DNA of 25,182 nucleotides from Actinomycetota bacterium (lineage in GTDB: Bacteria; Actinomycetota; Thermoleophilia; UBA2241): assembly GCA_012719015.1 (NCBI GenBank), contig JAAYBE010000275.1, forward strand, positions 1-25,182, given 5' to 3'. The position numbers and the translations under genes are program-made. Under the pieces are notes generated by a model that saw only the letters and a list, made by a program, of their open reading frames with translations, was not told the DNA's origin and made no database searches. Shown here piece after piece: positions 2,856 through 24,872 of the stretch (position 1 is its first letter; each line of letters begins with the position of its first letter).

Positions 2856-2869
2856 GGGAAGGCTGGCCG

Positions 2870-4160: not shown

Positions 4161-4182
4161 GCCGCCCTCCGGCCGGTCGCGC

Positions 4183-7086: not shown

Positions 7087-7183
7087 ACGGTGGAGCGAGG
7101 GGGCCTGTCCTCCCGCCGCCCCGATGACCGCGACACGAGAACGGCCGGAGACGCCTCCCAGGACGCCGCGGCGCCACGGCGGC

Positions 7184-7189
7184 TATAAT
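7184..7189 (+). promoter_or_regulatory. Consensus -10 box TATAAT for the wzc-like gene
   Basis: Perfect TATAAT in very GC-rich DNA, 36 nt before TTG 7226, which has SD GGGGAGGG; no convincing -35. Confidence 0.6.
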
Positions 7190-7225
7190 CCCCGGACGAC
7201 TGCTCGCGAGGGGAGGGCGAACGCG

Positions 7226-11947: not shown

Positions 11948-13498
11948 TCACGGCGCCGCATCCCGACGCGAGCCCCTGCCCGCCAGGCCGTCGAGCAGCC
12001 GTACGATCCTCGCCACGACGCCGCTCCCCTGGCCTCCATGGCCGGCCGCGTCGAGCCGCCCGCGGATCTCCCGCCAGACGAGTCCTCCGCGTGCTCTGGT
12101 GACGGTCCAGAGCAGGTACGCCGCGGCCGCCGTCATCTGCACGGCGAGTATCGGCGGCGCACCCAGGCCGAGCCGACCCAGGCCGACGTGCAGACCGTAG
12201 AGCCCCGCCCCGGTGACGACCCCGGCGACGACACCCACGCCGTGGGCGCGCGCGATGTCGACGACGCCGAGGCTGAGCAGTCGCCGCATCACCGGCACGT
12301 AGGCCAGGTTCGTGAGCAGCTCGGAGACGGCGAACGCCCCCGCGATGCCCACGATGCCGAACCGGGCCAGCGCGACGAGGAGCAGCGCCAGCCAGCCGAG
12401 ACGGCAGACCGAGATCAGGATCTTGACGTTCAGGGTCGCCGTCGCCTCACAGAGCATGGCCCCGAAGTGCGTCAGCAGGGAGAGCGGCGCCGCCAGCGAG
12501 AGCAGGGCGAGAGCCGGGACGGCCGCGCTCCACTGCGGCCCCAGCACCGTGGCGATGACCTCGTGCGCGGCCCCGGCGACGCCCCAGGCGACGGGGACGA
12601 TGACGGCGGCCACCACCGTGAGGGTCGCCAGATAAAGCGAGCGCAACCGCTCGCGCTCGAACTGGATGCGGCTGTACCCGGGCAGCAACACCCGGGAGAG
12701 GCTCGTCACCATGAGCTGCAGGGGGACGGTGGCCAGACTGGTCGCGCGCGTGTACAGACCGGTCGCCCGCGGTCCCAGGTAATGACCCGCCCACAACGTG
12801 TCGAGGTTGGTGCCGGCGAACTCGGCGATGCCGATGAGAGAGACCCGAGCACCGAACGAGTAGATCGCCTTGAACGACCGCGCACTCAACCCGAGCCCGA
12901 CGTCCGCCCGGCACAGGAGCAGGTAGGCGGTGGCCAGGAGGGTGGCCTGCCCCAGGGACGCCGTCACGAGGCTCCAGACGCCGAACCCCGCGTAGGCCAG
13001 TCCGAGCCCGAGTGCCGCGTAGCCGAGCAGATACGAGCCGATCTCCGTGAGCGCGATCGGACGGAAGGCGAAGCGGCGCCGCAGCAGGCCGTGCGTGGTG
13101 GCCGTGAAACCGCCGATCACCAGCGTGAGCGACATCACGCGCGTCACGGGCACGATGCCGGGCGTATGCGGGAAGAGCGCCCCCGCCAGGGGTGCGAGGA
13201 CGACGAAGAGAACGCAGAGGCCCACGCCGATGAGCGCGGCGGAGGTGAACGCGGTGCGCACGTCACGCGCGTCCAGCTCCGGCTTCTGGACCACCGCTTG
13301 TCCGGCGCCGGCCTGGGCGAAGTACTGTGCGAAGCGCAGCAGCACCAGGGCCATCGCGACCACCCCGAACTCGCTCGGAGTGAGCACCCGGGCGAGGATC
13401 GCGGTGACGGAGAGCTGCAACGCGAAGACGACCACCGTGGAGAGATAGCTCCACTTGAGGCCGTGGATGGTCTCGGCCGTGAGGTTACTGCTTCGCAT
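11948..13498 (-). CDS. wzx: Wzx-type polysaccharide repeat-unit flippase (PST/MOP family, WzxC-like)
   Basis: 516 aa polytopic protein; GLKWS...ILARVLTPSEFG...G...AVVQ, LLRRRFAFRPIA, GFGVWSLV and GLYTRA motifs. Confidence 0.93.
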   Translation of the reverse strand: MRSSNLTAETIHGLKWSYLSTVVVFALQLSVTAILARVLTPSEFGVVAMALVLLRFAQYFAQAGAGQAVVQKPELDARDVRTAFTSAALIGVGLCVLFVVLAPLAGALFPHTPGIVPVTRVMSLTLVIGGFTATTHGLLRRRFAFRPIALTEIGSYLLGYAALGLGLAYAGFGVWSLVTASLGQATLLATAYLLLCRADVGLGLSARSFKAIYSFGARVSLIGIAEFAGTNLDTLWAGHYLGPRATGLYTRATSLATVPLQLMVTSLSRVLLPGYSRIQFERERLRSLYLATLTVVAAVIVPVAWGVAGAAHEVIATVLGPQWSAAVPALALLSLAAPLSLLTHFGAMLCEATATLNVKILISVCRLGWLALLLVALARFGIVGIAGAFAVSELLTNLAYVPVMRRLLSLGVVDIARAHGVGVVAGVVTGAGLYGLHVGLGRLGLGAPPILAVQMTAAAAYLLWTVTRARGGLVWREIRGRLDAAGHGGQGSGVVARIVRLLDGLAGRGSRRDAAP

Positions 13499-13732: not shown

Positions 13733-14614
13733 GTGGGTGTCTGGACGGTGATCGCTCACTACGGCGACGTGTACGCCACACGTGAGGCGGTCAACGCCGT
13801 CCTCGCCGGCTCTGAGCGCCCGGAGACCGTCCTGCTGGTCGACAATCAGGGCGACCTGCCCGCGTTCGACGATGAGGCCGTGCAGGTGGAGCGCCCGGGC
13901 GACAACATCGGCTTCGCCGGCGCCTGCGTGCTGGGCATGCGCCGGGCGCTGGCCGCCGGCGCCGACTGGGTGTGGTTCGTCAACAACGACGCAGAGCCCG
14001 GCCCGGAGTGTCTGGAGCGCCTTCTGGACGCCGGGGCGGCCGCGCCCCGCGCCGGGCTCCTGAGCCCCGCGATCGAGCACCGCGACAGGGCGGGCTTCTG
14101 GTACGCGGGCGGCGACCTCGACCGGCGGCGCCTCCAGGTCGAGCATCGCGCGCGGCCGGAGCGGGACACGCCGCACGACGTGCCCTTCGTCACCGGATGC
14201 GCGTGGCTGGCGCGGCGCGCCTTCATCGAGCAGTGCGGCCCCCTGGACGCGGGCCTCTTCATGTACTTCGAGGACGTCGACTGGAGCCTCCGTGCGCAGG
14301 CGGCCGGCTGGCGCACGATGCTCGTGCCCGCGGCGCGCGTCGCCCACGACGCGGCGTACGCACACGGCCGACGCGTCTTCACGCCGACGGCCATCTACTA
14401 CATGACGCGCAACCGCCTGCTCCTGGCGCGGCGCTGGGGCTCCCCCGGGGCCGTGTTCGCGGCCGCTGTGACATGGGGCGGTCGCCAACTCGTCAAGTGC
14501 CGCTCCGCCGCGGCGGCCGCGAAGGTCGTCCTGGCGCTCTCGGCCGGTGTCCGGGACGGCGTGGCCGGCCGCCGAGGTCCGGCGCGCCCCGGGCTCGCCC
14601 GCAAGCTGCGATGA
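13733..14614 (+). CDS. Glycosyltransferase family 2
   Basis: 293 aa; LVDN, NIGFAGA, WVWFVNNDA, VTGCAWL, FMYFEDVDWS and YYMTRNRLL motifs of WbbL/RfbF-like GT2 proteins. Confidence 0.93.
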   Translation: MGVWTVIAHYGDVYATREAVNAVLAGSERPETVLLVDNQGDLPAFDDEAVQVERPGDNIGFAGACVLGMRRALAAGADWVWFVNNDAEPGPECLERLLDAGAAAPRAGLLSPAIEHRDRAGFWYAGGDLDRRRLQVEHRARPERDTPHDVPFVTGCAWLARRAFIEQCGPLDAGLFMYFEDVDWSLRAQAAGWRTMLVPAARVAHDAAYAHGRRVFTPTAIYYMTRNRLLLARRWGSPGAVFAAAVTWGGRQLVKCRSAAAAAKVVLALSAGVRDGVAGRRGPARPGLARKLR

Positions 14615-16044
14615 GGAGCGATGCCGCACCCCGGTACCCGGACCGCTGGTTCTGGGTCGGCATCGTCCTGGCTTACGCGGCGATCGTGGCGGCGGCCCTC
14701 TGGACGCCGGTGCTCGGCGCCGTGCTCGCCGCCCTGGTCGGAGTCGGCGCCCTCCTCGCGACCATCGTGGGCACGCGCCGCGGGACGCTGTTCCTCGGCG
14801 CCCTGCTCATCGCGGTCGACCTCGTGCTGCCGTCCGACGTGGCCCTGCGGCTCCGCATCCCCGTCGGGGGCGGCGGGATCTACATCCAGGACCTGATCCT
14901 CGGCGTGCTCCTGGTCAGCGTCGTCCTGGGAGCGACCTCCGGGAGACGCCCCGGCGCCGTGACGTCCCCCGTGCGGCTCCCCATCCTCCTCTTCCTGTGC
15001 TGGACGGCCGTGGCCGCCTTCATCGGCTCTCAGAACGGCAACCAGGTCAAGTTCATCCTTCAGGACGCCCGCTCGCTCGTCTATTACGCCGTCTTCTTCT
15101 TCGCCGTCACGTTCCTCACTGACCGCCGTGAGCTCCTCGGGTTCCTGCGCCTCCTGGCCGTCTGTACGGTCGTGGCGTTCGCGCTCGGCGCCGTGTACGC
15201 GGCACTGGGCCGGGGAGGAGCCGTCGAGTTCGTGGAGGCCGGCGTGAGCCGGTTCCCGGCCGCCGACTTCATCTTCCTCATGGCGGCCATGATGCTCGCG
15301 GCGTTCGTCGTGGTCTGGCCCGCCGGGCGCCGCCGGCCGGCCTGGCTGTGGCTCCTGCTCCTTGTGGCGCTCCTCGGACTGGTGCTCTCGTTCGTGCGCG
15401 GCAACTGGGTCGCGTTCGCGGCCGGGCTCGCCTACCTGATGGTGGTCCTCCACGTGCGGGAGCGCATGCGGCTGGTCGTCGGCGGACTGGCGGTCGCGCT
15501 GATCCTCGGCGTCGGCCTGGCCGCCGTGAGCCCGGCCGTGTTCTCCTCGGTGGTCTCGAGAGCACTCGCGGTCAGGGCGATGGACGACCCCAACGTCCAG
15601 TACCGCCTCATAGAGAACCAGGAGGTCGGCCGGCAGATCGCGGAGAAGCCGGTCCTCGGCAACGGCCTGGGCGCCGAGTTCCTCTTCGACTGGTCGCGCT
15701 ACGGCGTGGCTCCCTTCCTCAAGACGTACATCCACAACAACTACTACTGGTTCCTGCAGCGGCTGGGGATCATCGGGCTGGGTCTGTTCGTCTGGATGAC
15801 GATCGCCTTCCTGGTTCCCTGGATGAGCGTCCGGAGCACGCTGCCCCGCGACGACCCCTGGCTCTCGGGACTGGTCTTCGGGGGGCGTGCGTTGTTCGTC
15901 GCTTTGCTGGTCAATTCGATCACCTCGCCGCGCTTCAACACCATGGACAGCGTGGCGGTGCTCGCCCTCCTGATGGGGATGTCCGAGGCGGCCCTGGCCC
16001 TCCTGCGCGACCGCGTCGCGCGCGGGCCGGGGGCGCCCGCCTGA
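14611..16044 (+). CDS. O-antigen ligase / Wzy polymerase family membrane protein
   Basis: ATG 14611 overlaps the GT2 stop (ATGA). 477 aa polytopic protein with LSFVRGNW, YRLIE, KPVLGNGLG and HNNY...GIIGL motifs of Wzy_C. Confidence 0.88.
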   Translation: MRSDAAPRYPDRWFWVGIVLAYAAIVAAALWTPVLGAVLAALVGVGALLATIVGTRRGTLFLGALLIAVDLVLPSDVALRLRIPVGGGGIYIQDLILGVLLVSVVLGATSGRRPGAVTSPVRLPILLFLCWTAVAAFIGSQNGNQVKFILQDARSLVYYAVFFFAVTFLTDRRELLGFLRLLAVCTVVAFALGAVYAALGRGGAVEFVEAGVSRFPAADFIFLMAAMMLAAFVVVWPAGRRRPAWLWLLLLVALLGLVLSFVRGNWVAFAAGLAYLMVVLHVRERMRLVVGGLAVALILGVGLAAVSPAVFSSVVSRALAVRAMDDPNVQYRLIENQEVGRQIAEKPVLGNGLGAEFLFDWSRYGVAPFLKTYIHNNYYWFLQRLGIIGLGLFVWMTIAFLVPWMSVRSTLPRDDPWLSGLVFGGRALFVALLVNSITSPRFNTMDSVAVLALLMGMSEAALALLRDRVARGPGAPA

Positions 16045-16052
16045 GCACCGCG

Positions 16053-17105
16053 TCAGCGCCCCGGCCGGCCGGCGTCCCGGAAGGCGGACTCGACCATGGC
16101 CGCCAGGGCGCCGGCCCTCTCCTCCCAGTCGGCGCGGCGGATGCCCCGCAGCTCGCCGATCTCGCGCTCGTACGCGGCGTGACCGGCGACCATCCTCCGC
16201 ACGCCGGCGAGGATCCCCTCGGCCGTGCCGTCCACGAACACCGCGCCCTGGGAGAAGTAACCCCTCAGGGTAGGCCAGTCGGAGGTGATGACGGGCCGGC
16301 CGAGGGAGAGCGCTTCGTTGGCGCCGCACTGGAACGTGTGGTCCCGGGTGGTCAGCGCCATCACCGCATGACTCGACTTGAGCAGGCCGTAGTACCGGCG
16401 CTCAGGCAGGAAGCCCGTGAACACGACGTTGGCGGGCGCCCCCTCCACGAGGCCGGCCGGGGCCCGCGCGGGATCGCCGGTCACATGGAAGCGCACGGAG
16501 GGCTCATGGACGGCCGCGGCGAGGACCTCCTCAACGGGCTCGTCGGCCGCGAACCGGTTCACGACGGCGACGTTGAAGCCCTCGGGCAACGGGTGATCCT
16601 CCCACTCGTAGCTGCCGATGGGGTCCTTCAGCACCAGGACCCGACCCCCGCGTCCTTCGACCAGACGCTGGAAGTGCTCGTCGTGGACCAGCGTCACCAG
16701 CGCGTCCCGGGTGGCCGGCCGGTGCAGCCATGAAGGCTCGAGCCAGACCCGGCGCTGCATGGCGTCGCTGTGCGCGTCGACGATGTAGCGACCTCCGGCG
16801 ATCCGGCAGCACCAGCGCACCAGGAGGACGCTGTGGCTGGGCGGGCTCTGCACGAAGACGACCTCCGGTCGTGTGCGCCACAGCAGGCCGAGGGTCCAGC
16901 CCGCCTGCAGCAGGTAGCGCAAGGGGGCGCTCCGGCTCGTCGAGCCCCACGGCGCCCCCAGGTGCCGCACCTGGGCGATGCCGAGCGCCCGCGCCAGCTG
17001 GCGGGTGCGGCTGCTGCCGTGGCTCGCGGGAGTCCACGTCAGGAACAGCGTCCTCCGGCGCCGGAAGACGGTCACGTCCGCCGCCCCGTGGTCTGCCCCG
17101 GTCAC
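16053..17105 (-). CDS. GT-B fold glycosyltransferase (family 4-like)
   Basis: 350 aa; FLTW...RTRQLA, RPEVVFVQSPP, DAHS, NVVFTGFLP, CGANEALSLGRPVITSD and GAVFVD. GTG start approximate. Confidence 0.85.
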   Translation of the reverse strand: MTGADHGAADVTVFRRRRTLFLTWTPASHGSSRTRQLARALGIAQVRHLGAPWGSTSRSAPLRYLLQAGWTLGLLWRTRPEVVFVQSPPSHSVLLVRWCCRIAGGRYIVDAHSDAMQRRVWLEPSWLHRPATRDALVTLVHDEHFQRLVEGRGGRVLVLKDPIGSYEWEDHPLPEGFNVAVVNRFAADEPVEEVLAAAVHEPSVRFHVTGDPARAPAGLVEGAPANVVFTGFLPERRYYGLLKSSHAVMALTTRDHTFQCGANEALSLGRPVITSDWPTLRGYFSQGAVFVDGTAEGILAGVRRMVAGHAAYEREIGELRGIRRADWEERAGALAAMVESAFRDAGRPGR

Positions 17106-17193: not shown

Positions 17194-18213
17194 ATGGAAG
17201 TCCTCGAGTCGCCGATAGACGACCCTCGCTGGCGGGAGCTGGCGGACACGCACCCGGACGCGGGCCCCTTCCACCTGCCCGCCTGGGCCTCGCTGATCGC
17301 CGACTGCTACCGCTTCCGGGCGTTCGCGCTGATTGTCCGGGAGGGCGACGAGGTGCTCGCCGGACTGCCGGTGGTGGAGGTGGGCGCGCGGCGCGCCCGG
17401 CGATGGGTGTCCCTGCCGTTCACGGATTCGTGCGCGCCGCTCATCCGCGCCGGCGTCGCGGCCGACGAGGTGTTCGCCGCCATCGACGCGCACGTGCTGG
17501 CCGCTCCGGTGCGCGGGTTGGAGGTACGCGCCGCGCTCCCCGCCGGCGCCGCCCGCCATCCCGTGGCGGCCGGCTACATCCACACGCTCGCCCTGCCCGA
17601 AGACCCCTCGCAGCTCCGCCCCAACAAGGGACACCGCAACTACCGCAACCAGGCGGTGCGCAAAGGCGTCCGGGTGGTGCGCGGCCGCAGCCCGGCGGAG
17701 CTCGCCACCTTCTACCGGCTGCACACGCTCACCCGACGACGTCACGGAGTGCCGGTGCAGCCGCGCCGCTTCTTCGACCTGCTGCAGCAGCGGCTGATCG
17801 CGCCGGGACAGGGCTTCGTGGCGACGGCGTCGGCCGACGGCGAGACGCTGGCGGCGGGCGTCTACCTGGTGCACAACAGGGTGCTGGTGGCCAAGTACCT
17901 GGGCTCAGACCCGAGCCTGCCGGACAAGCGGGCCGGCTACCTCATCGACTGGGACTCCATGGTCAACGGATGCGCCGAGGGCTATCACACGCTCGACCTC
18001 GGACGCAGCGACCCCGACGCCGACGGACTGCGCCTCTACAAATCCTCGTGGGGCGCGGCGGAGGCTCCGCTGACGTACACGCACATCTCGCGCACGCGGC
18101 CGCCGGCCGACCGCGGGTCCGGGGGCGGCGGCATCGCCGCCGCGGTCATCCGTCGGGCGCCCGTCTGGGTCTGCCGCGCGCTGGGCGAGCTGTTCTATCG
18201 CCGGGCCGCCTGA
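17194..18213 (+). CDS. GNAT superfamily protein, FemAB-related (Acetyltransf_6-like)
   Basis: ATG 17194, 339 aa; GPFHLPAW, WVSLPFTD, RNQAVRKGV, HGVPVQPRRFF, LDLGRS and GLRLYKSSWGA, typical of duplicated-GNAT FemAB-like proteins in polysaccharide loci. Confidence 0.85.
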   Translation: MEVLESPIDDPRWRELADTHPDAGPFHLPAWASLIADCYRFRAFALIVREGDEVLAGLPVVEVGARRARRWVSLPFTDSCAPLIRAGVAADEVFAAIDAHVLAAPVRGLEVRAALPAGAARHPVAAGYIHTLALPEDPSQLRPNKGHRNYRNQAVRKGVRVVRGRSPAELATFYRLHTLTRRRHGVPVQPRRFFDLLQQRLIAPGQGFVATASADGETLAAGVYLVHNRVLVAKYLGSDPSLPDKRAGYLIDWDSMVNGCAEGYHTLDLGRSDPDADGLRLYKSSWGAAEAPLTYTHISRTRPPADRGSGGGGIAAAVIRRAPVWVCRALGELFYRRAA

Positions 18214-19382
18214 GAGCCCGCGGCGCGGGAAGCGGGCCGCGGCGCGGCGTCCCGTGGCGGACCGGCCGCCGGAGGACCCTCCCACCGCTCGCGCACCCAG
18301 CCGGCGACCTCGCGCGGCAGGGCGTGCCAGGACTGCGGGAGGCGCACCAGCTCGTCGAGGAACTCCTCGTACAGCGCCGTCCTGCCGCGGCACAGGTAGT
18401 CCGGATGCGTGTTCACGAGGGCCATGCCGCGGTGGGCGGTGAGGAAGTCGAGCTTCTCGAGCCAGATCCGCGGACCCGTCTCGCCCAGCGTCTCGATGAG
18501 CGTGTGGTCCTGGGGCAGCGTGTACGGCAGCTCGACGAACCGCCCCATCACGTAGGGCCACACGGTCATGACCCCGCCGGGCATCGGCTCGAAGGGGTCG
18601 GTGTCGAAGAACGAGGAGTCCCACTCGACCGCGAGATCCTGCATCCAGGACGGCTCGCGGTGGGTCATCGGCGACCGGAACCCGACCGATCCCCACTCCC
18701 GCAGGCGCGCGTTCATCGCCGGCAACCGGCGGTGGAAGCGGGCGCGCGACTCGAAGAGCCGTCCGTCGTGGCGCCACCCGTGCAGCGCGACCTCGAACCC
18801 CGCGGCACGGAGCTCATGCAGGAGCGAGTCCGGCACGCGGTACGTGCCGCCCACGAAGGAGACCGACGAGCTCAGGCCACGGGTCTGCTCCAGGGCGAGC
18901 AGGTCGAGCAGACGGGAGAGGCCGAAAGGCCCTTCGACGTCGTGGGTGAGCACCACGGCGCAGGCACGGTCGTCCGGCCACCACGGCGCGGCGCGCTCCG
19001 TCCCGGACGCCTCGAGTGCGGCGCGCACCTGCTCGGCGAAGACGACGAACCTCTCCTCCACCGGCCAGCGCAACGGCCCGGCCGCGGCCTCGCGGCTGAC
19101 CACACGGCGGCGCAGCAGCGCCCTGGCCCCGGCGGGGAGCAACGGCCGCAGGCGGTAGTACAGCCGCCGTGCCGGCGGGAGGACGAAGTGGTCCGGTCCG
19201 AACTGCCCCTCGAGCAGCAGCGCCTCCCCGAGTCCGCCCAGGCCCTCCCCGGCCAACGCCCGCCGGGCCGCCTCCGGCAGCACGTCGGCCGCCGCACGAA
19301 CCGCGTCCTCGACGGCGTCGCGCGGGAACGTCCGCAGCCCCAGCAGCCGCACGATCGCGTCGTCGGCCAGCACCCCGCGCAT
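18195..19382 (-). CDS. Polysaccharide deacetylase-like protein (NodB/CE4-type) with N-terminal extension
   Basis: LYYRLRPLLP, RWPVE, WWPDDRACAVVLTHDVE, FEVALHGWRHDG, GFRSP, WDSS, ELPYTLPQDH and VNTHPDY. ATG 19382 has SD GGGGTGAGG; the start is approximate. The 3' end overlaps the GNAT gene by 19 nt. Confidence 0.8.
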   Translation of the reverse strand: MRGVLADDAIVRLLGLRTFPRDAVEDAVRAAADVLPEAARRALAGEGLGGLGEALLLEGQFGPDHFVLPPARRLYYRLRPLLPAGARALLRRRVVSREAAAGPLRWPVEERFVVFAEQVRAALEASGTERAAPWWPDDRACAVVLTHDVEGPFGLSRLLDLLALEQTRGLSSSVSFVGGTYRVPDSLLHELRAAGFEVALHGWRHDGRLFESRARFHRRLPAMNARLREWGSVGFRSPMTHREPSWMQDLAVEWDSSFFDTDPFEPMPGGVMTVWPYVMGRFVELPYTLPQDHTLIETLGETGPRIWLEKLDFLTAHRGMALVNTHPDYLCRGRTALYEEFLDELVRLPQSWHALPREVAGWVRERWEGPPAAGPPRDAAPRPASRAAGSQAARR

Positions 19383-19483
19383 CCCGAGCCTCACCCCCGA
19401 TCCCGTGGTCGTCGCCGGACCGGGCCGCGCCGTCACCGCGCCCGGTCGTGCGGACGAGCGTACCAGCACGACGACGATACGGG

Positions 19484-19489
19484 TAACAT
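19484..19489 (+). promoter_or_regulatory. Candidate -10 TAACAT for the GT4/FemX/DUF362 unit; a minus-strand TATCGT lies at 19479-19474
   Basis: TAnnnT hexamers on both strands in the divergent spacer 19383-19545. Confidence 0.3.
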
Positions 19490-19545
19490 GGAGGTTCCCG
19501 TCCACGACTCTGAGGCGGGGACGACGGACGACGGAAGGGGGCGGG

Positions 19546-20856
19546 ATGCGGTTCCTGGCGAGCAGGCGCGAGAGGACGGACCGACGCGCCGCGGCGCGTC
19601 CCCGGGCGCTGATCCTCGTCGAGAACGCCCCCGTGCCCGGCGACCGGCGCGTGACGGCCGAGGCCCTGTCGTTGCGGGCCAACGGCTACGACGTCAGCGT
19701 GATCTGCCCGGTCGCCGGGGACCAGCCGCTGCGCGAGGAGATGGACGGCGTGCTGGTGGCACGCTACCACCCCCACCAGCCGCCCTGCGTCTCGGGCGGC
19801 GCCCGCGAGCAGGTGACCGAGTACCTCGTGGCGCTGGCGAAGACCCTGCGCCTGATGGTGAGCCTGGCGCGGAGGCCCGGCTTCGACGTCATCCAGGCCT
19901 GCAACCCGCCCGACCTCTTCTTCCTGGTCAGCTGGCCGTTCAAGCTGGCCGGCAAGCGCTTCATCTTCGACCAGCACGACCTCTCCCCCGAGCTCTACGC
20001 GACGATCTTCGGCCGCGACTCGGGGCCGATCATGCGGGCGCTGCGCTGGACGGAGGCCCTCTCCTACCGGCTCGCCGACGCCGTGATCGCGACGAACGAG
20101 TCGTACCGCCGGATCGCCGAGACGCGCGGGAGGGTGGCGCCCGACCGTGCGTTCGTGGTGCGCAACGGGCCGCGCGAGGGCTGGCCGCTCCCGGTCGCGC
20201 CCGACCCGTCGCTCAAGCGCGGCCGTCCCCTGCTCGTGGTCTACATGGGAGTGATGGGGCACCAGGACGGTGTCGACCGGCTGCTCGACGCGGCGCACAT
20301 CCTGATCCGGGAGAGGGGCTTCCGCGACGCCACCTTCGCGCTCGTCGGAGAGGGCAGCGCGGAGCGGGACCTGTGGCGCCAGGCGCGCGAGCTGGGCATC
20401 GAGGACCACGTCCACTTCACCGGCTGGGTCGACGACGAGGACCTGCTCTCGCGCTATCTCGTGACGGCCGACGCCTGCGTCTGCCCGGAGCCGTCCAGTC
20501 CACTGAACGACCATTCGACCTTCATCAAGGTCATGGAGTACATGGCCTCGGGCACGCCGGTCGTCGCGTTCGACCTTCCGGAGACGCGGTTCTCCGCCGG
20601 CGACGCCGCGGTCTACGCCGCGCCGGGCGACATCGAGGGCTTCGCCGCGCGGCTCGAGGAGGTGCTCACCGACGGCGGGCTGCGCGCGGCCATGCAGGCC
20701 GAGGCCGCGCAGCGGATGCCCGGACTGCGCTGGGAGAGCCAGGTCCCGGCCCTGCTGGCGGCCTATCGCCGGGCGCTCGCGGGCCACCCCGCCGGACCCG
20801 CCCGCTCCGGGGAGTCCGGCGGGTCCGAGCCTCCCCGAGAGGAGGCTCCGCCGTGA
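19546..20856 (+). CDS. Glycosyltransferase family 4 (WbuB-like)
   Basis: ATG 19546, 436 aa; ILVEN.PVP.DRRV..EA, DVIQACNPPD, FDQHDLSPELY, YMGVMGHQDGVD and KVMEYMASGTPVVAFDL. Confidence 0.92.
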   Translation: MRFLASRRERTDRRAAARPRALILVENAPVPGDRRVTAEALSLRANGYDVSVICPVAGDQPLREEMDGVLVARYHPHQPPCVSGGAREQVTEYLVALAKTLRLMVSLARRPGFDVIQACNPPDLFFLVSWPFKLAGKRFIFDQHDLSPELYATIFGRDSGPIMRALRWTEALSYRLADAVIATNESYRRIAETRGRVAPDRAFVVRNGPREGWPLPVAPDPSLKRGRPLLVVYMGVMGHQDGVDRLLDAAHILIRERGFRDATFALVGEGSAERDLWRQARELGIEDHVHFTGWVDDEDLLSRYLVTADACVCPEPSSPLNDHSTFIKVMEYMASGTPVVAFDLPETRFSAGDAAVYAAPGDIEGFAARLEEVLTDGGLRAAMQAEAAQRMPGLRWESQVPALLAAYRRALAGHPAGPARSGESGGSEPPREEAPP

Positions 20857-21965
20857 GGGTCCGCGAGCTGGACGTCTCCCGCGCCGCGGACTGGAACGAC
20901 CTCGTCGCCGCCGAAGGGTCGTTCGCCCTGACCCAGGCGCGTGAATGGGGCGCGTTCAAGGCGCGCCTCGGCTGGCGCGTCCGCCGGATCGGCGTCGAGG
21001 ACGGAGACGGCCGGCTCGTCGCCGGCGCGCAGCTCCTCATCAAGCCGCTGCCCCTGGGTCTCACGCTCGCCTACGTGCCGCGAGGCCCGGTGGGCCGCTG
21101 GCACGAGCCGGAGGTGGCCACCCTCCTACTGGCGCGACTCGAGCGCTGCGCGCAGGCGGAGGGCGCCGTGTTCCTCAAGCTCGAACCGGCGGTCGCCGTC
21201 GGAGCACCGGTGCTCGACCTGCTCGCCAGACACGGCTTCCGCGAGAGCCGGGTCACCAACCAGCCCCGGACGACCATGCTGCTGGATGTCTCCGGCGCGC
21301 CGGAGGACGTCCTGGGGCGGATGCGCAAGAAGACCCGTCAGTACGTCCGTCGCGCCGAGCGCGAGGGCATCACGACCCGGCTCGGCGCGACGGACGACCT
21401 GCCCGCCTTCCACGACCTGATGCGGAAGACGGCGCGGCGAGAGGGCTTCGCCCCGCGGAGCCTCGCCTACCACCAGGCCGAGTGGGACGTCTTCTCCGCC
21501 GGCGGCCTGTGCGCCCTGCTCCTCGCCCACCACGAGGGACGGCTGATCGCCGTCCGGACGGTCCACCGCTTCGGCCGGCACGCCGCCGAGTTCCACGGCG
21601 GGTCGGTCACGACGCCCGGTCTCCATCCCAACCACCTGCTCGTATGGCGGGCCGTCGAGTGGGCCAGGGAGCACGGCTGCTCCACCTACGACCTCTGGGG
21701 GATCCCCGACGAGGTGGAGCCCGCCGCGGACGGCGGGCGGCCGGAGGCGCCGGAGCGGCGCGACGGCCTCTGGGGGGTCTACCGGTTCAAGCGAGGGTTC
21801 GGCGCCGACGTCGTCAGATACGCCGGCGCCTACGACCTCGTGCTCAAGCCGCGGGCGTACTCCGTGCTCACCGCGGCCATGATCGACAGATCGCTCTGGG
21901 AGCGAGCGGCCGCCCGGCTCGACCGGGTCGCGAGCTCCACCATCTTCAAAGGGGCTGCACCATGA
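20853..21965 (+). CDS. FemABX-family aminoacyl-tRNA-dependent transferase (lipid II:glycine glycyltransferase FemX-like)
   Basis: GTG overlaps the GT4 stop (GTGA), 370 aa. TQAREWGAFK, LAYVPRGP, VFLKLEP, QPRTTMLLD, KKTRQYVRRAE, PNHLLVWRA, YDLWGIP and GVYRFKRGFG. Confidence 0.9.
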   Translation: MRVRELDVSRAADWNDLVAAEGSFALTQAREWGAFKARLGWRVRRIGVEDGDGRLVAGAQLLIKPLPLGLTLAYVPRGPVGRWHEPEVATLLLARLERCAQAEGAVFLKLEPAVAVGAPVLDLLARHGFRESRVTNQPRTTMLLDVSGAPEDVLGRMRKKTRQYVRRAEREGITTRLGATDDLPAFHDLMRKTARREGFAPRSLAYHQAEWDVFSAGGLCALLLAHHEGRLIAVRTVHRFGRHAAEFHGGSVTTPGLHPNHLLVWRAVEWAREHGCSTYDLWGIPDEVEPAADGGRPEAPERRDGLWGVYRFKRGFGADVVRYAGAYDLVLKPRAYSVLTAAMIDRSLWERAAARLDRVASSTIFKGAAP

Positions 21966-24715
21966 TCTCGATCGTCATCGACCCGGACCTGCGCTACCCG
22001 GACCCGGCGGACCACTTCTCCCCCGACGAACGCTTCCCGGAATACCGTCTCGGGCACATCTCCGCGCGTCCCAACCCCGTTTACCGGGCGGTGCGGAACC
22101 TGTTCGTGCAGGCCGGGCTGGACGCCGCTCACCTGGGCACGGCCGACTGGAACCCGCTGGGCGAGTACGTCAGGCCGGGCAGCCGCGTCTTCCTCCTCTG
22201 CAACTTCATGCAGGAGCGTCGGGCGGACGAGTCCCGGGAGGACTTCTTCTCGCGCTGCTCGCACGGGTCGGTGATCCGGGCGCTGGCCGACTACGTGCTG
22301 ATCGCCGCCGGCGACACGGGGCACGTGAGCATCGGTAACGCACCGATACAGTTCTGCGACTGGGAGGCCGTGCTGCGCGACACGGAGGCCCGCGAGGTGC
22401 TGGACTTCTACGCCTCGGCCGGCGCGCCCGTCGCGGCCCGCGACCTGCGTCTCAAGGTGACGGCGGCCACGCGCCTCGGGGCGATCCGCAGCGTCGAGCG
22501 GCGCGACGAGACGGAGGGCGTGCACGTGCGCCTGGACGGCGACAGCCTGTTCGCCGGGCAGGACGCCCAGCGTCCGCGCTACCGCGTGATGAACTACGAC
22601 CCGCGACGGACGCAGCGGTTCCACGAGGGCGGACGCCACGAGTACGTGATCCACCGCGAGATCCTCGAGTCGGACGTGATCGTCAGCGCCGTGAAGCTCA
22701 AGACGCACGAGAAGGTGGGCATCACCTGCGGCATCAAGGGCATGGTGGGCACCGTGGCCCACAAGGACTCGCTGCCGCACCACCGCTACGGCCCCCCCGA
22801 CCGCGGCGGCGACGAATACCCGTCGGAGGACGCGGCGTTCGCACGGCTGGCGACCGGCGTGCACGAACTGGTGCAGCGCACCACACCCGACAGCCGCACC
22901 GGCAGCGCCCTGCGCGTGGGGTACAAGGTCCTGCGTCGCGCCGTCCGCAGCCGCACTCCGGTCGTCGAGGGCGCGTGGCACGGCAACGACACCACCTGGC
23001 GCATGGCCACGGACGTGGCCCGCATCGCCGTCCACGCCGACGCAGAGGGCGTCATGCACGAGACCCCGCAGCGCCGCGTCGTCGTGCTCACCGACGGGGT
23101 GATCGGCGGAGAGGGCGACGGGCCGTACATGTCCACTGCGGTCCACAGCGGGATCCTCGCCCTCGCCGACGACCTCGCCGCCGCCGACCACGCGAACGCT
23201 CTCCTGATGGGCTTCGACCCGGATCGCATCCCCCTCGTGCGCGAAGCGCCGCGCCTCGAGACGTATCCGCTCACGGACGGCGACCCGCGCCGGGCCGAGG
23301 TGACGCTGAACGGACGGGCCATGCCGATGACCGAGTTCGGGCGACTCGAGCGCACGCCCTACGAGCCTGAGACCAACTGGCGCGCCGTGCTCGGCCGGGA
23401 CGCCGTGCCGATGCCTGACGGGCCGGACGCGCCGGCCCACGGGCCGCGGGCCGCGAGCGAGTCGCGTCGGCCGGCTCAGCCCGCGCCGGCCGTGGTCGTC
23501 CCGGCCGACCGGCCCGCCGCGCTCGGCATCGCACGCTCGCTCGGCTCGCGCGGCGTCACCGTCTACGGCGTCGACTCCGACCTCCTCGCCCCGGCCATGG
23601 CGTCGCGCCACGTGACCCCGGTCCGGCTGCCCCGCGGCGACGCCTCCGACGAGACGCGTCTCCGCGCGCTGCTCGACCTCGGGCGAAGGATCGGCCGCCG
23701 CGCCGTCCTCTTCCCCGTCAGCGACTCGGCCGCGCTGCTCTGCTCGCGCCACCGGGACACGCTGCGCGAGCACTACGACTTCGTCATGCCGGAGGCCGAT
23801 GCGCTCGACCGCCTGCTCAGCAAGGACGGGCTGCATGAGCTCGCCGAAGAGCACGGCATCCCGGCGCCGCGCATGTTCCCGGTGGCGAACCGTGAGGAGG
23901 CCGAGACCATCGCCGACCGACTCCCCTACCCGGTGATCATCAAGCCGGTGTTCAGCCCGTCCTGGCAGAACCCGGAGGTCAGAGCCCTGCTGCGCACCAC
24001 CGCCCTGGGCGGCGGACCCAAGGTCGTGCTCTGCGGGAACGCGGCCGAGCTGCTCGCCGCCCACGGGAAGATCGCCGCCCACGACCCGCGCATGATCTTC
24101 GAGGAGGTCATCCCCGGGGAGGATCCCAGCCTCCTCTACCACTGCTTCTACCTGGACCGGGACTCACGCCCCCTGGCCACGTTCGCCGGACGCAAGCTGC
24201 GCCTGCTGCCGGTGGGCTTCGGATCGGCCTCCTTCGTACAGAGCGTCCACGATCCCGAGCTGGAGCGACTCAGTCTCGACCTGCTCGCAAAGATCCGCTA
24301 CCAAGGCCTGGGCGGAGTGGAGTTCAAGCGTGACGCGCGCGACGGACGCCTGAAGCTGATCGAGTTCAACGCGCGTTACGGCATGTGGGACTCGCTCGGC
24401 GTGCGCTGCGGCGTCGACATCCCGTGGGCCGCCTACCGGGACGCGTTGGGCGAGCCCGTCGAGCCCCGGCACCACTACCGCACCGGCGTCAAATGGGTCG
24501 ACCTGCAGCGCGACGCGCGCGCCTTCCTCCAGTACCGCTCCGCAGGCCGGCTCGGCCCCGCCGGATGGCTCCGCTCGCTGCTGGGCGAGAAGGACTGGGC
24601 CTACTTCGACCGCCGCGACTGGCGCCCGGCGGTGCTGGCGGCGGCGGAGCAGGCGCGGGCGTTGAGGAGACTGGCGAAGGACGGGGGAAGGAAGGTCGGG
24701 CGCAGTCAGTCGTGA
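21962..24715 (+). CDS. Two-domain protein: N-terminal DUF362-like domain fused to a D-aspartate-ligase-like ATP-grasp domain (917 aa)
   Basis: ATG overlaps the FemX-like stop (ATGA). DUF362-type WNPLG, SDVIVSAVKLKTHEKVGITCGIKGMVG and D.A..D..NALLMGFDP.RIP. ATP-grasp ALGIARSLG, LFPVSD, YPVIIKP, EEVIPG, GRKLR and GVEFKRD...LIEFNAR. Confidence 0.8.
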   Translation: MISIVIDPDLRYPDPADHFSPDERFPEYRLGHISARPNPVYRAVRNLFVQAGLDAAHLGTADWNPLGEYVRPGSRVFLLCNFMQERRADESREDFFSRCSHGSVIRALADYVLIAAGDTGHVSIGNAPIQFCDWEAVLRDTEAREVLDFYASAGAPVAARDLRLKVTAATRLGAIRSVERRDETEGVHVRLDGDSLFAGQDAQRPRYRVMNYDPRRTQRFHEGGRHEYVIHREILESDVIVSAVKLKTHEKVGITCGIKGMVGTVAHKDSLPHHRYGPPDRGGDEYPSEDAAFARLATGVHELVQRTTPDSRTGSALRVGYKVLRRAVRSRTPVVEGAWHGNDTTWRMATDVARIAVHADAEGVMHETPQRRVVVLTDGVIGGEGDGPYMSTAVHSGILALADDLAAADHANALLMGFDPDRIPLVREAPRLETYPLTDGDPRRAEVTLNGRAMPMTEFGRLERTPYEPETNWRAVLGRDAVPMPDGPDAPAHGPRAASESRRPAQPAPAVVVPADRPAALGIARSLGSRGVTVYGVDSDLLAPAMASRHVTPVRLPRGDASDETRLRALLDLGRRIGRRAVLFPVSDSAALLCSRHRDTLREHYDFVMPEADALDRLLSKDGLHELAEEHGIPAPRMFPVANREEAETIADRLPYPVIIKPVFSPSWQNPEVRALLRTTALGGGPKVVLCGNAAELLAAHGKIAAHDPRMIFEEVIPGEDPSLLYHCFYLDRDSRPLATFAGRKLRLLPVGFGSASFVQSVHDPELERLSLDLLAKIRYQGLGGVEFKRDARDGRLKLIEFNARYGMWDSLGVRCGVDIPWAAYRDALGEPVEPRHHYRTGVKWVDLQRDARAFLQYRSAGRLGPAGWLRSLLGEKDWAYFDRRDWRPAVLAAAEQARALRRLAKDGGRKVGRSQS

Positions 24716-24872
24716 GATGACCGTGACCGTCGCGAGAGAACCACTCGGCGGTATCCGGATGCACGCCAGGTGTGGCATCATCCCCTGCCATGGCCATTCG
24801 TGCGGACGCCTGGACGCGGGGCACGACGTGTCCCGGCAGACCACTGTCACAAGCTCACTCGGGAGGCATTCC

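What the first reader, a model, noticed from the sequence alone, without database searches (positions are those of the whole stretch)
17194..24715. Amide-bond-forming module inside a Wzx/Wzy polysaccharide locus: candidate aminoacyl decoration system
Seen: three potential amide- or acyl-transferring proteins (FemAB-related GNAT, FemX-like transferase, D-Asp-ligase-like ATP-grasp) plus a deacetylase-like protein are interleaved with two GT-B glycosyltransferases. GT4, FemX-like and the DUF362/ATP-grasp gene are chained by GTGA and ATGA overlaps, implying coupled translation. Established: FemABX enzymes transfer amino acids from aa-tRNA to amino groups on lipid-linked acceptors; Asl-type ATP-grasp enzymes ligate a carboxylate to an amine; CE4 deacetylases expose free amines on N-acetyl sugars; FemAB-related and deacetylase genes also co-occur in proteobacterial PEP-CTERM EPS loci. 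Inference: the lipid-linked repeat unit or polymer is de-N-acetylated and then given an amino acid or short peptide by both tRNA-dependent and ATP-dependent chemistry, yielding a peptidylated surface glycan or a glycan-to-peptidoglycan link.
Basis: partly seen in the sequence, partly recalled or inferred. Interest (0 to 1): 0.78.

Follow-up and report, generated by a model that had tools for sequence, protein, structure and literature searches.

The report
Amino-acid-adding cassette in polysaccharide locus
A Thermoleophilia bacterium carries, inside a surface-polysaccharide gene cluster, a conserved but unstudied enzyme set (sugar deacetylase, two FemX/VimA-type transferases, and a D-aspartate-ligase-like enzyme fused to a lactate-racemase-like domain) that most likely hangs amino acids or a short peptide on sugar amines, not on the cell-wall peptidoglycan.

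Summary
Window 17194-24715 encodes a FemAB-related GNAT (g15), a divergent CE4-fold deacetylase (g16), a GT4 (g17), a FemX-type transferase (g18) and a 917-aa DUF362 + ATP-grasp fusion (g19). g17/g18/g19 are chained by GTGA and ATGA overlaps. The block lies in a Wzx/Wzy/PGT/BY-kinase locus that is syntenic in a same-genus genome. The peptidoglycan-bridge rival is weak. Mur genes lie about 890 kb away. None of 43 related loci carries a Mur ligase, while 30 have the CE4 partner, 28 a FemAB/GNAT and 24 a GT4. g18 falls in a 100/99-supported clade of cassette-linked FemABs from three phyla, apart from standalone actinobacterial FemX. The ATP-grasp's nearest Swiss-Prot structural neighbour is E. 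faecium D-aspartate ligase, and the DUF362 half has a LarA fold. Two precedents exist: the Wbp/Vim pathway (CE4 VimE plus TIGR03019-type VimA make seryl/glycyl sugars) and the C. difficile type B flagellin locus (FemAB plus ATP-grasp make a peptidylamido sugar). This is therefore a new, uncharacterised variant of a known kind. The chemistry, acceptor, amino acids and DUF362 role remain inferred. First readers and follow-up agents of this scan noted similar cassettes on other DNA.

The parts
17194..18213 (+). g15: FemAB-related GNAT (Acetyltransf_6), VimA/TIGR03019-like, 339 aa
   Evidence: PF13480 at 61.6 bits; TIGR03019 at 104.6 bits over 12-334 of 339 aa, below the 260 cut-off. No TM segment. 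Orthologue at 72% identity plus a second paralogue at 52% in G355.
18195..19394 (-). g16: divergent CE4/NodB-fold deacetylase with a ~130-aa N-terminal helical domain, cytoplasmic
   Evidence: Pfam is weak (E 0.003). AF2 pLDDT 84. Foldseek finds CE4 structures: 3rxz E 5e-9, ArnD 8t0j, WbmS 3hft, NDST1. Invariant or near-invariant T-H151-D152-V-E154, H205-G-x-x-H209, R240-S-P242 and H330-P-D332. A CE4 partner is found in 30 of 43 related loci, usually right after the ATP-grasp.
19546..20856 (+). g17: GT4 glycosyltransferase, first gene of the coupled g17-g18-g19 unit
   Evidence: Glyco_trans_1_4 at 90.5 bits and Glyco_trans_4_4 at 59.8 bits. Its stop overlaps the g18 start as GTGA. A GT4 is present in 24 of 43 related loci.
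20853..21965 (+). g18: FemX-type (FemABX family) transferase, 370 aa
   Evidence: PF02388 at 145.6 bits. PDB 6snr E 4.8e-28 and Weissella FemX E 3e-18. F312-K313 aligns to the FK of S. aureus FemX. It sits in a 100/99-supported clade of cassette-linked FemABs. It is the only PF02388 gene in G000.
21962..23386 (+). g19 N-terminal half (aa 1-475): DUF362 domain with a LarA-like fold
   Evidence: PF04015 at 57.7 bits. VIA-align: LarA 5huq Z 17.2, 9eia 16.9, malate racemase 7s91 16.7, T. maritima 4nar 16.4 over model residues 6-478. Invariant H226, K245, K247, T248, H249, K251, H273. The subfamily has 725 representatives at E<=1e-30.
23387..23473 (+). g19 linker (aa 476-504), Pro/Ala-rich and predicted disordered
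   Evidence: pLDDT below 50 for residues 476-504. In G355 this position carries a single in-frame TGA that splits the two halves.
23474..24715 (+). g19 C-terminal half (aa 505-917): ATP-grasp carboxylate-amine ligase, D-aspartate-ligase-like
   Evidence: 2pn1 Z 28.2, PylC 4ffl Z 24.6, L-amino-acid ligases. Top Swiss-Prot model is D-aspartate ligase H8L902, E 5e-23, against about 1e-14 for the rest. More than 250 standalone relatives at 48-80% identity.
16053..17105 (-). g14: GT1-like glycosyltransferase next to the module
   Evidence: Glyco_trans_1_4 at 32.4 bits. 66% orthologue in the same position in G355.
3132..4160 (-). g05: GFO/IDH/MocA oxidoreductase, UDP-GlcNAc 3-dehydrogenase-like (WbpB/GnnA-type step)
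   Evidence: PF01408 at 107.5 bits. NF040723 UDP-GlcNAc 3-dehydrogenase at 176.9 bits, below cut-off.
5734..6888 (-). g07: DegT-family sugar aminotransferase (makes an amino sugar, a possible acceptor amine)
   Evidence: PF01041 at 387.8 bits.
4183..5709 (-). g06: priming polyprenyl-phosphate glycosyl-phosphotransferase
   Evidence: Bac_transf at 195 bits. TIGR03025 at 303.7 bits, above cut-off.
7124..8839 (+). g08: Wzz-type chain-length determinant fused to a tyrosine autokinase
   Evidence: Wzz and P-loop ATPase hits. TIGR01007 at 121 bits, above cut-off.
11948..13498 (-). g11: Wzx flippase
   Evidence: Polysacc_synt_3 at 232.7 bits.
14611..16044 (+). g13: Wzy-type polymerase
   Evidence: Wzy_C at 50.9 bits; 11 TM-like segments.

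Best explanation
g15-g19 form a cytoplasmic glycan-tailoring cassette that replaces or extends N-acyl groups on an amino sugar of the Wzx/Wzy repeat unit with amino acids. The proposed order is inferred. The GT4 (g17) installs an N-acetyl-hexosamine or 2,3-diamino sugar made by the GFO/DegT enzymes. The CE4-fold enzyme (g16) removes an N-acetyl group and exposes a free amine. The ATP-grasp half of g19 activates the carboxylate of an amino or hydroxy acid as an acyl phosphate and ligates it to a sugar amine, as Asl does on the lysine of peptidoglycan precursors. The FemX-type g18 and the VimA-like g15 add further residue(s), probably from aminoacyl-tRNA, giving an aminoacyl or short peptidyl side chain before Wzx flips the unit. 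The LarA-fold DUF362 half of g19 probably prepares or presents the ligase's acid substrate, for example by stereo-inversion, as the racemase RacD does for AslA. What is shown: gene content, folds, fusions, the conserved cassette, and its separation from peptidoglycan genes. What is inferred: substrates, order of steps, tRNA dependence, and the DUF362 role.
For: Domains and folds. All module proteins lack TM segments, and aa-tRNA and ATP are cytoplasmic. Translational coupling GT4-FemX-ligase. Locus synteny in G355, bounded by YmdB and nuo genes, not mur genes. Census of 43 ATP-grasp loci from at least 8 phyla: CE4 partner 30, FemAB or GNAT 28, GT4 24, DUF362 10, Mur ligase 0. Pfam-labelled contexts are all rich in glycosyltransferases. 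g18 is in a cassette-specific clade with 100/99 support. FemAB was not found in 29 of 30 other genomes of the class, so it is accessory. The DUF362 subfamily is repeatedly fused to GT4, to TupA-like ATP-grasp, or to this ATP-grasp. Precedents: VimE (CE4) plus VimA (TIGR03019-type) make 2-N-seryl or 2-N-glycyl sugars (PMC7468200). The C. difficile FemAB-like 0244 and ATP-grasp 0245 lie in the locus for a Fuc3N capped with taurine, Ala and Gly, and the 0245 mutant lacks the cap (PMC5207246 and PMC5207245). AslA is paired with a racemase in one operon (PMC4155827).
Against: No member of the cassette has been assayed, and no polysaccharide structure exists for any carrier. g15 and g16 score well below the equivalog cut-offs of TIGR03019 and TIGR03006, so they are not orthologues of the PEP-CTERM or Vim proteins. 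The ATP-grasp is only 21% identical to Asl, so its substrates cannot be transferred by homology. It could instead amidate a uronate, as Cj1438C does. FemAB-fold GNATs may use acyl-CoA and not aa-tRNA. No tRNA gene lies nearby. No function is known for DUF362. BLAST detected Wzx/Wzy in only 7 of 43 related loci.
Confidence: 0.6

Rival explanations
1. Uronate-amidation variant. The ATP-grasp half of g19 activates the C6 carboxylate of a uronic acid already in the glycan and amidates it with an amine or amino acid, as Cj1438C does in Campylobacter capsule. The FemAB-type enzymes act separately on sugar amines. The glycan is still amino-acid decorated, but the direction of the ATP-dependent step is reversed.
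For: Cj1438C is an ATP-dependent amidoligase acting on GlcA within the growing capsule chain, and it is fused to a GT2 domain (PMC11800397). P0008 has the same GT2 plus ATP-grasp layout, with an ATP-grasp 45% identical to g19's. UDP-sugar 6-dehydrogenases exist in G000 and G355. The DUF362 subfamily is also fused to the TupA-like ATP-grasp family, whose name refers to teichuronopeptide (own knowledge).
Against: The tightest partner of this ATP-grasp clade is a deacetylase (30 of 43 loci, usually the adjacent gene). That predicts an amine acceptor, not a carboxylate acceptor. No uronate dehydrogenase lies in the locus. The nearest characterised structural relative is Asl, which activates a free amino acid. 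No sequence comparison with Cj1438 could be made here.
Confidence: 0.17
2. Ordinary peptidoglycan interpeptide-bridge synthesis. g18 is the FemX and g19 the D-Asp/D-Glu ligase of an A4-type peptidoglycan, and they merely sit beside a polysaccharide locus.
For: g18 is homologous to lipid II and UDP-MurNAc-pentapeptide FemX enzymes, and it is the only PF02388 gene in G000 and G355. The ATP-grasp is nearest to Asl. In some actinobacterial genomes with low-identity homologues (L089-L091, 23-28%), a FemAB-like gene and an ATP-grasp gene are adjacent without other cassette genes.
Against: Mur ligases are about 890 kb away in G355 and on other contigs in G000. None of 43 related loci has a Mur ligase. 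g18 is translationally coupled to a GT4. Its clade contains only cassette-linked genes from Chloroflexota, Kiritimatiellota and Actinomycetota and excludes the near-universal standalone actinobacterial FemX. FemAB was not found in 29 of 30 other genomes of the same class, which does not fit a core wall function. ATP-grasp relatives occur in diderm phyla where such bridges are not known (own knowledge).
Confidence: 0.05
3. Small-molecule pathway. GT4, deacetylase, ligase and GNAT build a soluble aminoacyl-glycoside (with mycothiol/bacillithiol-like logic: MshA, MshB, MshC, MshD) or a peptidyl-sugar natural product, not a polymer decoration.
For: The enzyme order GT4, deacetylase, ATP-dependent ligase, double-GNAT acyltransferase parallels mycothiol synthesis (own knowledge). 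g17 gives weak hits to MshA (46 bits) and BshA (29 bits). Many related loci lack a detectable Wzx or Wzy within 10 kb.
Against: In this genus the module sits between Wzy/GT genes and the locus end and is conserved with them. Related contexts hold 3-6 glycosyltransferases, PGT, Wzy/Wzx and epimerases. The MshA and BshA scores are far below their cut-offs. DUF362-GT4 fusions point to glycan assembly.
Confidence: 0.07

Closest known systems
Wbp/Vim pathway of Porphyromonas gingivalis and Tannerella forsythia (PMC7468200)
   Same: An amino-sugar pathway of the WbpB/WbpE type is combined with a CE4 deacetylase (VimE) and a FemAB-related GNAT matching TIGR03019 (VimA), giving an N-aminoacyl sugar in a surface glycan. 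The window has a GFO 3-dehydrogenase-like gene, a DegT gene, a CE4-fold g16 and a TIGR03019-like g15.
   Different: There is no WbpA-type dehydrogenase or WbpS amidotransferase in the locus. g15 and g16 score far under the equivalog cut-offs. The host is a monoderm-lineage actinobacterium with a Wzx/Wzy locus and no T9SS context. The window adds a true FemX-type enzyme, an Asl-like ATP-grasp and a LarA-fold DUF362, none of which belongs to Wbp/Vim.
C. difficile type B flagellin glycan locus, CDR20291_0243-0247 (PMC5207246, PMC5207245)
   Same: A FemAB-superfamily gene lies next to an ATP-grasp gene, a GT and a sugar aminotransferase. The product is an amino sugar (Fuc3N) carrying an amide-linked peptide-like cap (Ala, Gly, taurine). 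The ATP-grasp mutant lacks the cap.
   Different: That system is a protein O-glycan, not a Wzx/Wzy polymer. It has an ornithine-cyclodeaminase-like gene and no CE4 or DUF362. Its enzymology is also unresolved. Sequence relatedness to g18 and g19 was not tested here.
Peptidoglycan cross-bridge enzymes: FemX (Weissella, S. aureus) and D-aspartate ligase Aslfm/AslA with racemase RacD (PMC4155827)
   Same: g18 is a clear FemX homologue (E 4.8e-28 to 6snr). The g19 C-half is closest in structure to Asl (E 5e-23). A tRNA-dependent enzyme is paired with an ATP-dependent amide former, and a stereo-inverting partner may be present (LarA-fold DUF362 versus RacD).
   Different: The genomic context is glycan assembly, not mur. 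g18 belongs to a separate cassette clade. Identity to Asl is only 21%. DUF362 is unrelated to aspartate racemase.
Cj1438 C-terminal amidoligase of Campylobacter jejuni capsule (PMC11800397)
   Same: It forms an amide bond on a polysaccharide intermediate using ATP, and the ligase is fused to another glycan-biosynthesis domain.
   Different: Cj1438C activates the sugar's own carboxylate and adds serinol phosphate or ethanolamine phosphate. Here the conserved deacetylase partner suggests a sugar amine is the nucleophile. No sequence comparison was possible.
XrtA/PEP-CTERM exopolysaccharide loci (TIGR03019 FemAB, TIGR03006 deacetylase)
   Same: A FemAB-related GNAT and a polysaccharide deacetylase sit together with GT4 genes and a tyrosine autokinase. 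g15, g16 and g17 give their best or only NCBIfam hits to the PEP-CTERM-associated models.
   Different: All scores are below the cut-offs. No exosortase was found in G000 or G355. The host is an actinobacterium.
LarA (lactate racemase) superfamily, DUF2088
   Same: The g19 N-half superposes on LarA, malate racemase and other LarA homologues at Z 15-17. DUF362 and DUF2088 share Pfam clan CL0471 (PMC11770544). LarC is present in both genomes.
   Different: It matches PF04015, not Lar_N. The nickel-pincer-binding and catalytic residues could not be mapped. No DUF362 protein has a known activity.

Membership tests
FemABX aminoacyl-tRNA-dependent transferases (PF02388) | Sequence match to the family model above the curated threshold | tested here: met
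   g18: PF02388 at 145.6 bits against a cut-off of 24. g15: only 22.9 bits, below the cut-off.
FemABX aminoacyl-tRNA-dependent transferases (PF02388) | Homology to structurally solved FemX enzymes over both GNAT-like domains | tested here: met
   g18 against 6snr: E 4.8e-28, aligned at 24-225 and 225-339. Against Weissella FemX: E 3e-18.
FemABX aminoacyl-tRNA-dependent transferases (PF02388) | Conserved C-terminal Phe-Lys pair (the role in binding the tRNA acceptor end is from own knowledge of FemX_Wv F304/K305) | tested here: met
   g18 F312-K313 ('RFKRGFG') aligns to 'AFKKVWG' of S. aureus FemX. The Weissella alignment did not reach this region.
FemABX aminoacyl-tRNA-dependent transferases (PF02388) | Uses aminoacyl-tRNA as donor | not testable with these tools
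   This needs an enzyme assay. No dedicated tRNA gene is in the window.
FemABX aminoacyl-tRNA-dependent transferases (PF02388) | Acceptor is a peptidoglycan precursor (genomic or phyletic link to the wall pathway) | tested here: not met
   0 of 43 loci have a Mur ligase. The mur cluster is about 890 kb away. g18 is in a separate clade. FemAB was not found in 29 of 30 genomes of the same class.
Asl-type D-aspartate ligase (ATP-grasp) | ATP-grasp fold with intact conserved core | tested here: met
   Z 28.2 to 2pn1 and Z 20-27 to PurK, PylC and L-amino-acid ligases. 63 invariant positions in the C-half across 31 sequences.
Asl-type D-aspartate ligase (ATP-grasp) | Closest characterised relative is Asl | tested here: met
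   afdb_swissprot top hit is H8L902 D-aspartate ligase: E 5e-23, TM by hit 0.71, 21% identity. The next hits are about 1e-14. JGI names many relatives 'D-aspartate ligase'.
Asl-type D-aspartate ligase (ATP-grasp) | Acts on UDP-MurNAc-pentapeptide; co-located with aspartate racemase or wall genes | tested here: not met
   The neighbours are GT4, FemAB, CE4 and DUF362, with no Mur genes. An aspartate racemase was not searched for specifically.
Wbp/Vim pathway | VimA-type transferase (TIGR03019-like) | tested here: inconclusive
   g15 matches TIGR03019 end to end at 104.6 bits, under the 260 cut-off. The G355 paralogue scores 119.2 bits. No VimA sequence was available for direct comparison.
Wbp/Vim pathway | VimE-type CE4 deacetylase | tested here: inconclusive
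   g16 has a CE4 fold and CE4 motifs, but it is a divergent subfamily: PF01522 at 18 bits and TIGR03006 at 15 bits.
Wbp/Vim pathway | WbpA/B/E/D enzymes making UDP-GlcNAc(3NAc)A | tested here: inconclusive
   A WbpB-like 3-dehydrogenase (176.9 bits to NF040723, under cut-off) and a DegT aminotransferase are present. The hexapeptide transferase looks more like a WcaF-type O-acetyltransferase. No 6-dehydrogenase is in the locus.
XrtA/PEP-CTERM EPS system | Exosortase present; equivalog-level matches to TIGR03019 and TIGR03006 | tested here: not met
   PF09721 was not found in G000 (91% complete) or G355 (98% complete). The scores are below the cut-offs.
LarA superfamily (nickel-pincer racemases/epimerases) | LarA fold | tested here: met
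   Z 15.3-17.2 to five LarA-family structures over model residues 6-478.
LarA superfamily (nickel-pincer racemases/epimerases) | Lar_N sequence signature, catalytic His pair, and Lys/His that hold the cofactor | tested here: inconclusive
   g19 matches PF04015, not PF09861. The relative P0140 just reaches Lar_N at 23.8 bits. An invariant His/Lys cluster exists but could not be superposed on LarA residues.
LarA superfamily (nickel-pincer racemases/epimerases) | Cofactor biosynthesis genes present | tested here: inconclusive
   LarC (PF01969) is present in G000 and G355. LarB and LarE were not tested.

The most novel reading that the evidence does not exclude
The DUF362 half of g19 is an active LarA-like stereo-inverting enzyme, possibly dependent on the nickel-pincer cofactor, that makes a D-configured amino or 2-hydroxy acid and hands it directly to the fused Asl-like ligase. 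This would be a racemase-ligase fusion that writes a non-ribosomal residue onto a sugar amine, which FemX-type enzymes then extend from aa-tRNA. It would give DUF362 (thousands of proteins, no known function) its first activity. It would also define a widespread 'glycan stem-peptide' pathway whose free amino terminus might serve as an anchor for transpeptidases, as the seryl sugar does for type IX secretion cargo.
Probability: 0.15. Interest if true: 0.85.

Novelty: new variant of a known kind. Interest (0 to 1): 0.6.

Why it matters
Amide-linked amino acids on bacterial surface glycans change charge, antigenicity and anchoring. Yet the enzymes are known in only a few cases (Wbp/Vim, the C. 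difficile flagellin cap, Cj1438), and none of those is fully worked out in vitro together. This cassette combines a deacetylase, tRNA-type transferases and an ATP-dependent ligase, and it is conserved from Thermoleophilia to Anaerolineae, Acidobacteriota and Planctomycetota. It therefore probably accounts for a common but unrecognised class of peptidyl-decorated exopolysaccharides in sludge, soil and sediment bacteria. It also gives the first concrete functional context for a large DUF362 subfamily: fusions to GT4 and to two ATP-grasp families. And it shows that automatic 'D-aspartate ligase' and 'FemX' labels in such genomes should not be read as evidence about peptidoglycan type.

Tried and rejected
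1. My quick GC3 gene caller failed on G355, so I replaced it with tblastn synteny.
2. Sequence search of the DUF362 half against the PDB found nothing. Only fold comparison found LarA.
3. Foldseek on the whole 917-aa model returned only ATP-grasp hits. The N-domain needed VIA-align's per-range output.
4. Literature searches for ATP-grasp plus capsule plus glucuronate, and for FemX plus polysaccharide, found little.
5. A relaxed BLAST for Wzx, Wzy, PGT and BY-kinase in the 43 loci found them in only 7. I therefore do not claim a general Wzx/Wzy association.
6. I considered that g20 (24717-25181) might be the ~152-aa CapK partner seen in L010, L028 and L064. It is unrelated, with no hit in any locus, and looks like a secreted protein.
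7. No tRNA genes, sigma-70-like promoters or intrinsic terminators were found in or near the module.
8. I rejected the idea that the fusion is an assembly artefact. P0001 (98% identity) and P0002 (67%, two independent assemblies) are also fused.
9. No complex-prediction job was run, because no binding claim is made.
10. L093 comes from an unpublished genome (G001) and is not used for any claim.

Full report
**Source and gene map.** The window is a whole 25.2-kb contig (C187) of a 2.37-Mb assembly in 461 contigs, 91% complete and 72% GC. A same-genus genome, G355, is titled 'MAG: Thermoleophilia bacterium isolate AnMBR.bin210', so the organism is an actinobacterium of the class Thermoleophilia.

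A GC3 frame plot and Pfam/NCBIfam scans give a typical Wzx/Wzy-dependent polysaccharide locus:
- GtrA
- a GFO/IDH/MocA oxidoreductase whose best match is UDP-GlcNAc 3-dehydrogenase
- a priming phosphoglycosyl transferase (TIGR03025, above cut-off)
- a DegT aminotransferase
- a Wzz-tyrosine kinase
- a secreted F5/8C plus beta-helix protein
- a hexapeptide acetyltransferase
- Wzx, a GT2, Wzy and a GT1-like gene
- then the block named in the finding.

**Observation.**
- **g15** (17194-18213, +) is an Acetyltransf_6 GNAT. It matches TIGR03019 (FemAB family, PEP-CTERM-associated) end to end at 104.6 bits, under the 260 cut-off.
- **g16** (18195-19394, -) gives only a sub-threshold Polysacc_deac_1 hit. 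Its AlphaFold model (pLDDT 84) is nevertheless a CE4 fold: 3rxz at E 5e-9, also ArnD, WbmS and NDST1. An alignment of 17 family members keeps NodB-like motifs: T-H-D-V-E, H-G-x-x-H, R-S-P and H-P-D.
- **g17** (19546-20856, +) is a GT4.
- **g18** (20853-21965, +) is a bona fide FemABX protein. It scores 145.6 bits on PF02388 and E 4.8e-28 to S. aureus FemX 6snr, and it keeps an aligned Phe-Lys pair.
- **g19** (21962-24715, +) is a 917-aa fusion.

The GTGA and ATGA overlaps are real, and each is preceded by a Shine-Dalgarno-like motif. The one correction is that only one GT-B gene lies inside the given range. The other (g14) sits just upstream.

**The fusion protein.** The AF2 model (pLDDT 86) shows two domains joined by a disordered Pro/Ala-rich linker at residues 476-504.
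- The C-terminal half is a canonical ATP-grasp: Z 28 to 2pn1, and Z 20-27 to PurK, PylC and L-amino-acid ligases.
- Among Swiss-Prot models its top neighbour is E. faecium D-aspartate ligase at E 5e-23. The next hits are about 1e-14.
- The N-terminal half has no sequence match in the PDB. It superposes on lactate racemase LarA, malate racemase and other LarA homologues at Z 15-17. This fits DUF362 and DUF2088 sharing Pfam clan CL0471 (PMC11770544).
- It carries an invariant His/Lys cluster: H226, K245, K247, T248, H249, K251 and H273.

The fusion is rare but real. P0001 (98% identity) and P0002 (67%, from two independent assemblies) are also fused. In G355 the halves are in one frame, separated by a single TGA. 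In Chloroflexota relatives they are separate adjacent genes.

**Is it peptidoglycan bridge synthesis?** This was the main rival, because FemX plus Asl is exactly the enzyme pair for A4-type cross-bridges. Several lines argue against it.
1. In G355 (1.84 Mb main contig) the whole locus is syntenic at 48-87% identity. It ends with a second g15 paralogue facing YmdB and complex I genes. The mur cluster is about 890 kb away. In G000 the mur genes are on other contigs.
2. A scan of species-representative genomes with an ATP-grasp alignment gave 43 loci. Most are in Anaerolineae, with others in Acidobacteriota, Nitrospiraceae, Planctomycetota, Kiritimatiellota, Myxococcota, Aminicenantes and Coriobacteriia. 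In a tblastn census, 30 of 43 carry a CE4-type partner, usually the next gene. 28 carry a FemAB or Acetyltransf_6 gene, 24 a GT4, 10 a DUF362, and none a Mur ligase.
3. Pfam-labelled metagenomic contexts show the same cassette among 3-6 glycosyltransferases, epimerases and methyltransferases, sometimes with Wzy/Wzx or CapK-like genes.
4. In a maximum-likelihood tree, g18 sits in a 100/99-supported clade made only of cassette-linked FemABs from three phyla. The standalone FemX genes that are near-universal in some actinobacterial families (20/21, 22/31, 10/10) fall outside that clade.
5. FemAB homologues were not found in 29 of 30 other genomes of the same class. The gene is therefore accessory, probably acquired with the cassette, and not a core wall function.
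6. The second ATP-grasp paralogue of G000 (C58) lies beside a TuaE-like polymerase, which is again a glycopolymer context.

**What is known that works like this.** Two published systems use the same logic.
- **Wbp/Vim pathway of P. gingivalis and T. forsythia.** WbpA/B/E/D make UDP-GlcNAc(3NAc)A. The CE4 enzyme VimE is proposed to remove the 2-N-acetyl group. VimA, which matches TIGR03019, determines whether serine or glycine is added. The resulting free amine is the point where type IX secretion cargo is attached (PMC7468200). I checked it by reading the paper and by scoring g05, g07, g10, g15 and g16 against NCBIfam.
- **C. difficile type B flagellin locus.** A FemAB-superfamily gene (0244) and an ATP-grasp gene (0245) lie beside a GT and an FdtB-type aminotransferase. 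The glycan ends in Fuc3N capped with taurine, alanine and glycine, and the 0245 mutant lacks this cap (PMC5207246, PMC5207245).
- **Cj1438C of C. jejuni.** This shows that an ATP-dependent ligase can act on a sugar already built into a growing chain, there on the GlcA carboxylate (PMC11800397).
- **AslA.** It uses beta-aspartyl phosphate and is co-transcribed with its racemase (PMC4155827).

**Most likely mechanism (inferred).** All module proteins lack TM segments, and their co-substrates are cytoplasmic. The tailoring therefore happens on a nucleotide- or undecaprenyl-linked intermediate before Wzx export.

The tight deacetylase-ligase pairing suggests three steps. g16 exposes a sugar amine. 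The ATP-grasp acylates that amine with a free acid. The FemX-type g18 and VimA-like g15 (plus a second g15 paralogue in G355) add further residues. The C3 amine generated by the GFO/DegT pair is a second possible acceptor.

The DUF362 domain may be a stereo-inverting or substrate-presenting partner. Its subfamily is large: 725 representatives at E<=1e-30. It is repeatedly fused to glycan enzymes, namely GT4 (P0222, P0231, P0007), TupA-like ATP-grasp (P0141, P0232) and TOD1/MUCI70 (P0248). These fusions tie it to glycan assembly independently of gene neighbourhood.

LarC is present in both genomes, whereas no canonical LarA N-domain was found in G355. This is compatible with a nickel-pincer-dependent role, but it is far from proof.

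**Limits.**
- No enzyme of the cassette has been assayed, and no glycan structure is known for any carrier.
- The identity of the amino acids, the acceptor, tRNA versus CoA donors for g15, and the direction of the ATP-grasp reaction are all open.
- The 'glycan-to-peptidoglycan link' has no support.
- The cassette's association is with glycosyltransferase-rich loci in general. BLAST detected Wzx, Wzy, PGT or BY-kinase within 10 kb in only 7 of 43 loci, partly because these proteins diverge fast.
- No exosortase is present, so this is not a PEP-CTERM system.
- One context (L093) comes from an unpublished genome (G001) and is not used for any claim.

**Verdict.** This is a new, uncharacterised variant of a known kind of system. 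It combines Wbp/Vim-type and FemX/Asl-type chemistry, with a novel LarA-fold DUF362 partner fused to the ligase. First readers and follow-up agents of this scan noted closely similar cassettes on other DNA.

Noticed in passing
L030:9899-10060 (G355:C1, junction of the DUF362 and ATP-grasp genes): In the same-genus genome the two halves of the fusion lie in one reading frame, separated by a single in-frame TGA. Fusion and split state differ by one codon. This could be a real split, a sequencing error or read-through.
   Followed up: partly
G355:C1:62776-63942 (LarC); G355:C1:589641-590252 and 688305-688862 (DUF362): G355 (98% complete) has a LarC nickel-insertion gene and two DUF362 genes, but no detectable LarA N-domain (PF09861). 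An 'orphan' LarC hints at a different user of the nickel-pincer cofactor. G000 does have Lar_N-like hits.
   Followed up: partly
window 9128-11218 (+): A secreted F5/8 type C plus right-handed beta-helix protein, with weak similarity to pectate lyase PelN. Homologues at 25-41% identity recur on the opposite strand near the cassette in 11 of 43 related loci. It may be a dedicated glycan lyase or hydrolase for the decorated polymer.
   Followed up: partly
window 24717-25181 (+), runs off the contig end: g20 starts 1 nt after the g19 stop. It has an Arg-rich stretch followed by a hydrophobic segment (aa 62-95), like a signal peptide, so the true start may be an internal Met. It has no homologue in any related locus, including G355.
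   Followed up: partly
L028:1-3734 and L064:3-3720; L010:3530-5364; L034:4085-6000: Pairs of a CapK_C (adenylate-forming, CapK-like) gene and a ~152-155-aa protein, sometimes in tandem, sit next to the cassette in several relatives. This may be a further amide- or ester-forming step. They are absent from the window as far as the contig reaches.
   Followed up: no
G000:C58:562-1689 (-) and 3967-5277 (-) (L026): A second, standalone ATP-grasp paralogue (35% identical to the g19 C-half) lies on a short contig beside a TuaE-like (teichuronic-acid polymerase-like) gene. The genome may therefore decorate a second glycopolymer.
   Followed up: partly
P0141, P0232, P0222, P0231, P0248 (metagenomic proteins): The cassette-type DUF362 domain is also fused to the TupA-like ATP-grasp (PF14305), to GT4 and to TOD1/MUCI70 glycosyltransferase-like domains. 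P0140 (909 aa) just reaches the Lar_N threshold.
   Followed up: partly
window 1078-3118 (+): A GtrA-family membrane protein is followed by a 500-aa protein with no Pfam or NCBIfam hit. This left edge of the contig (g01-g04) is not syntenic with the G355 stretch examined.
   Followed up: no
L074 (G202:C511:7314-10900): An actinobacterial genome of another family has a compact CE4-like, FemAB, ATP-grasp trio on one strand (43%, 35% and 30% identity) without DUF362. It is a more distant version of the cassette.
   Followed up: no
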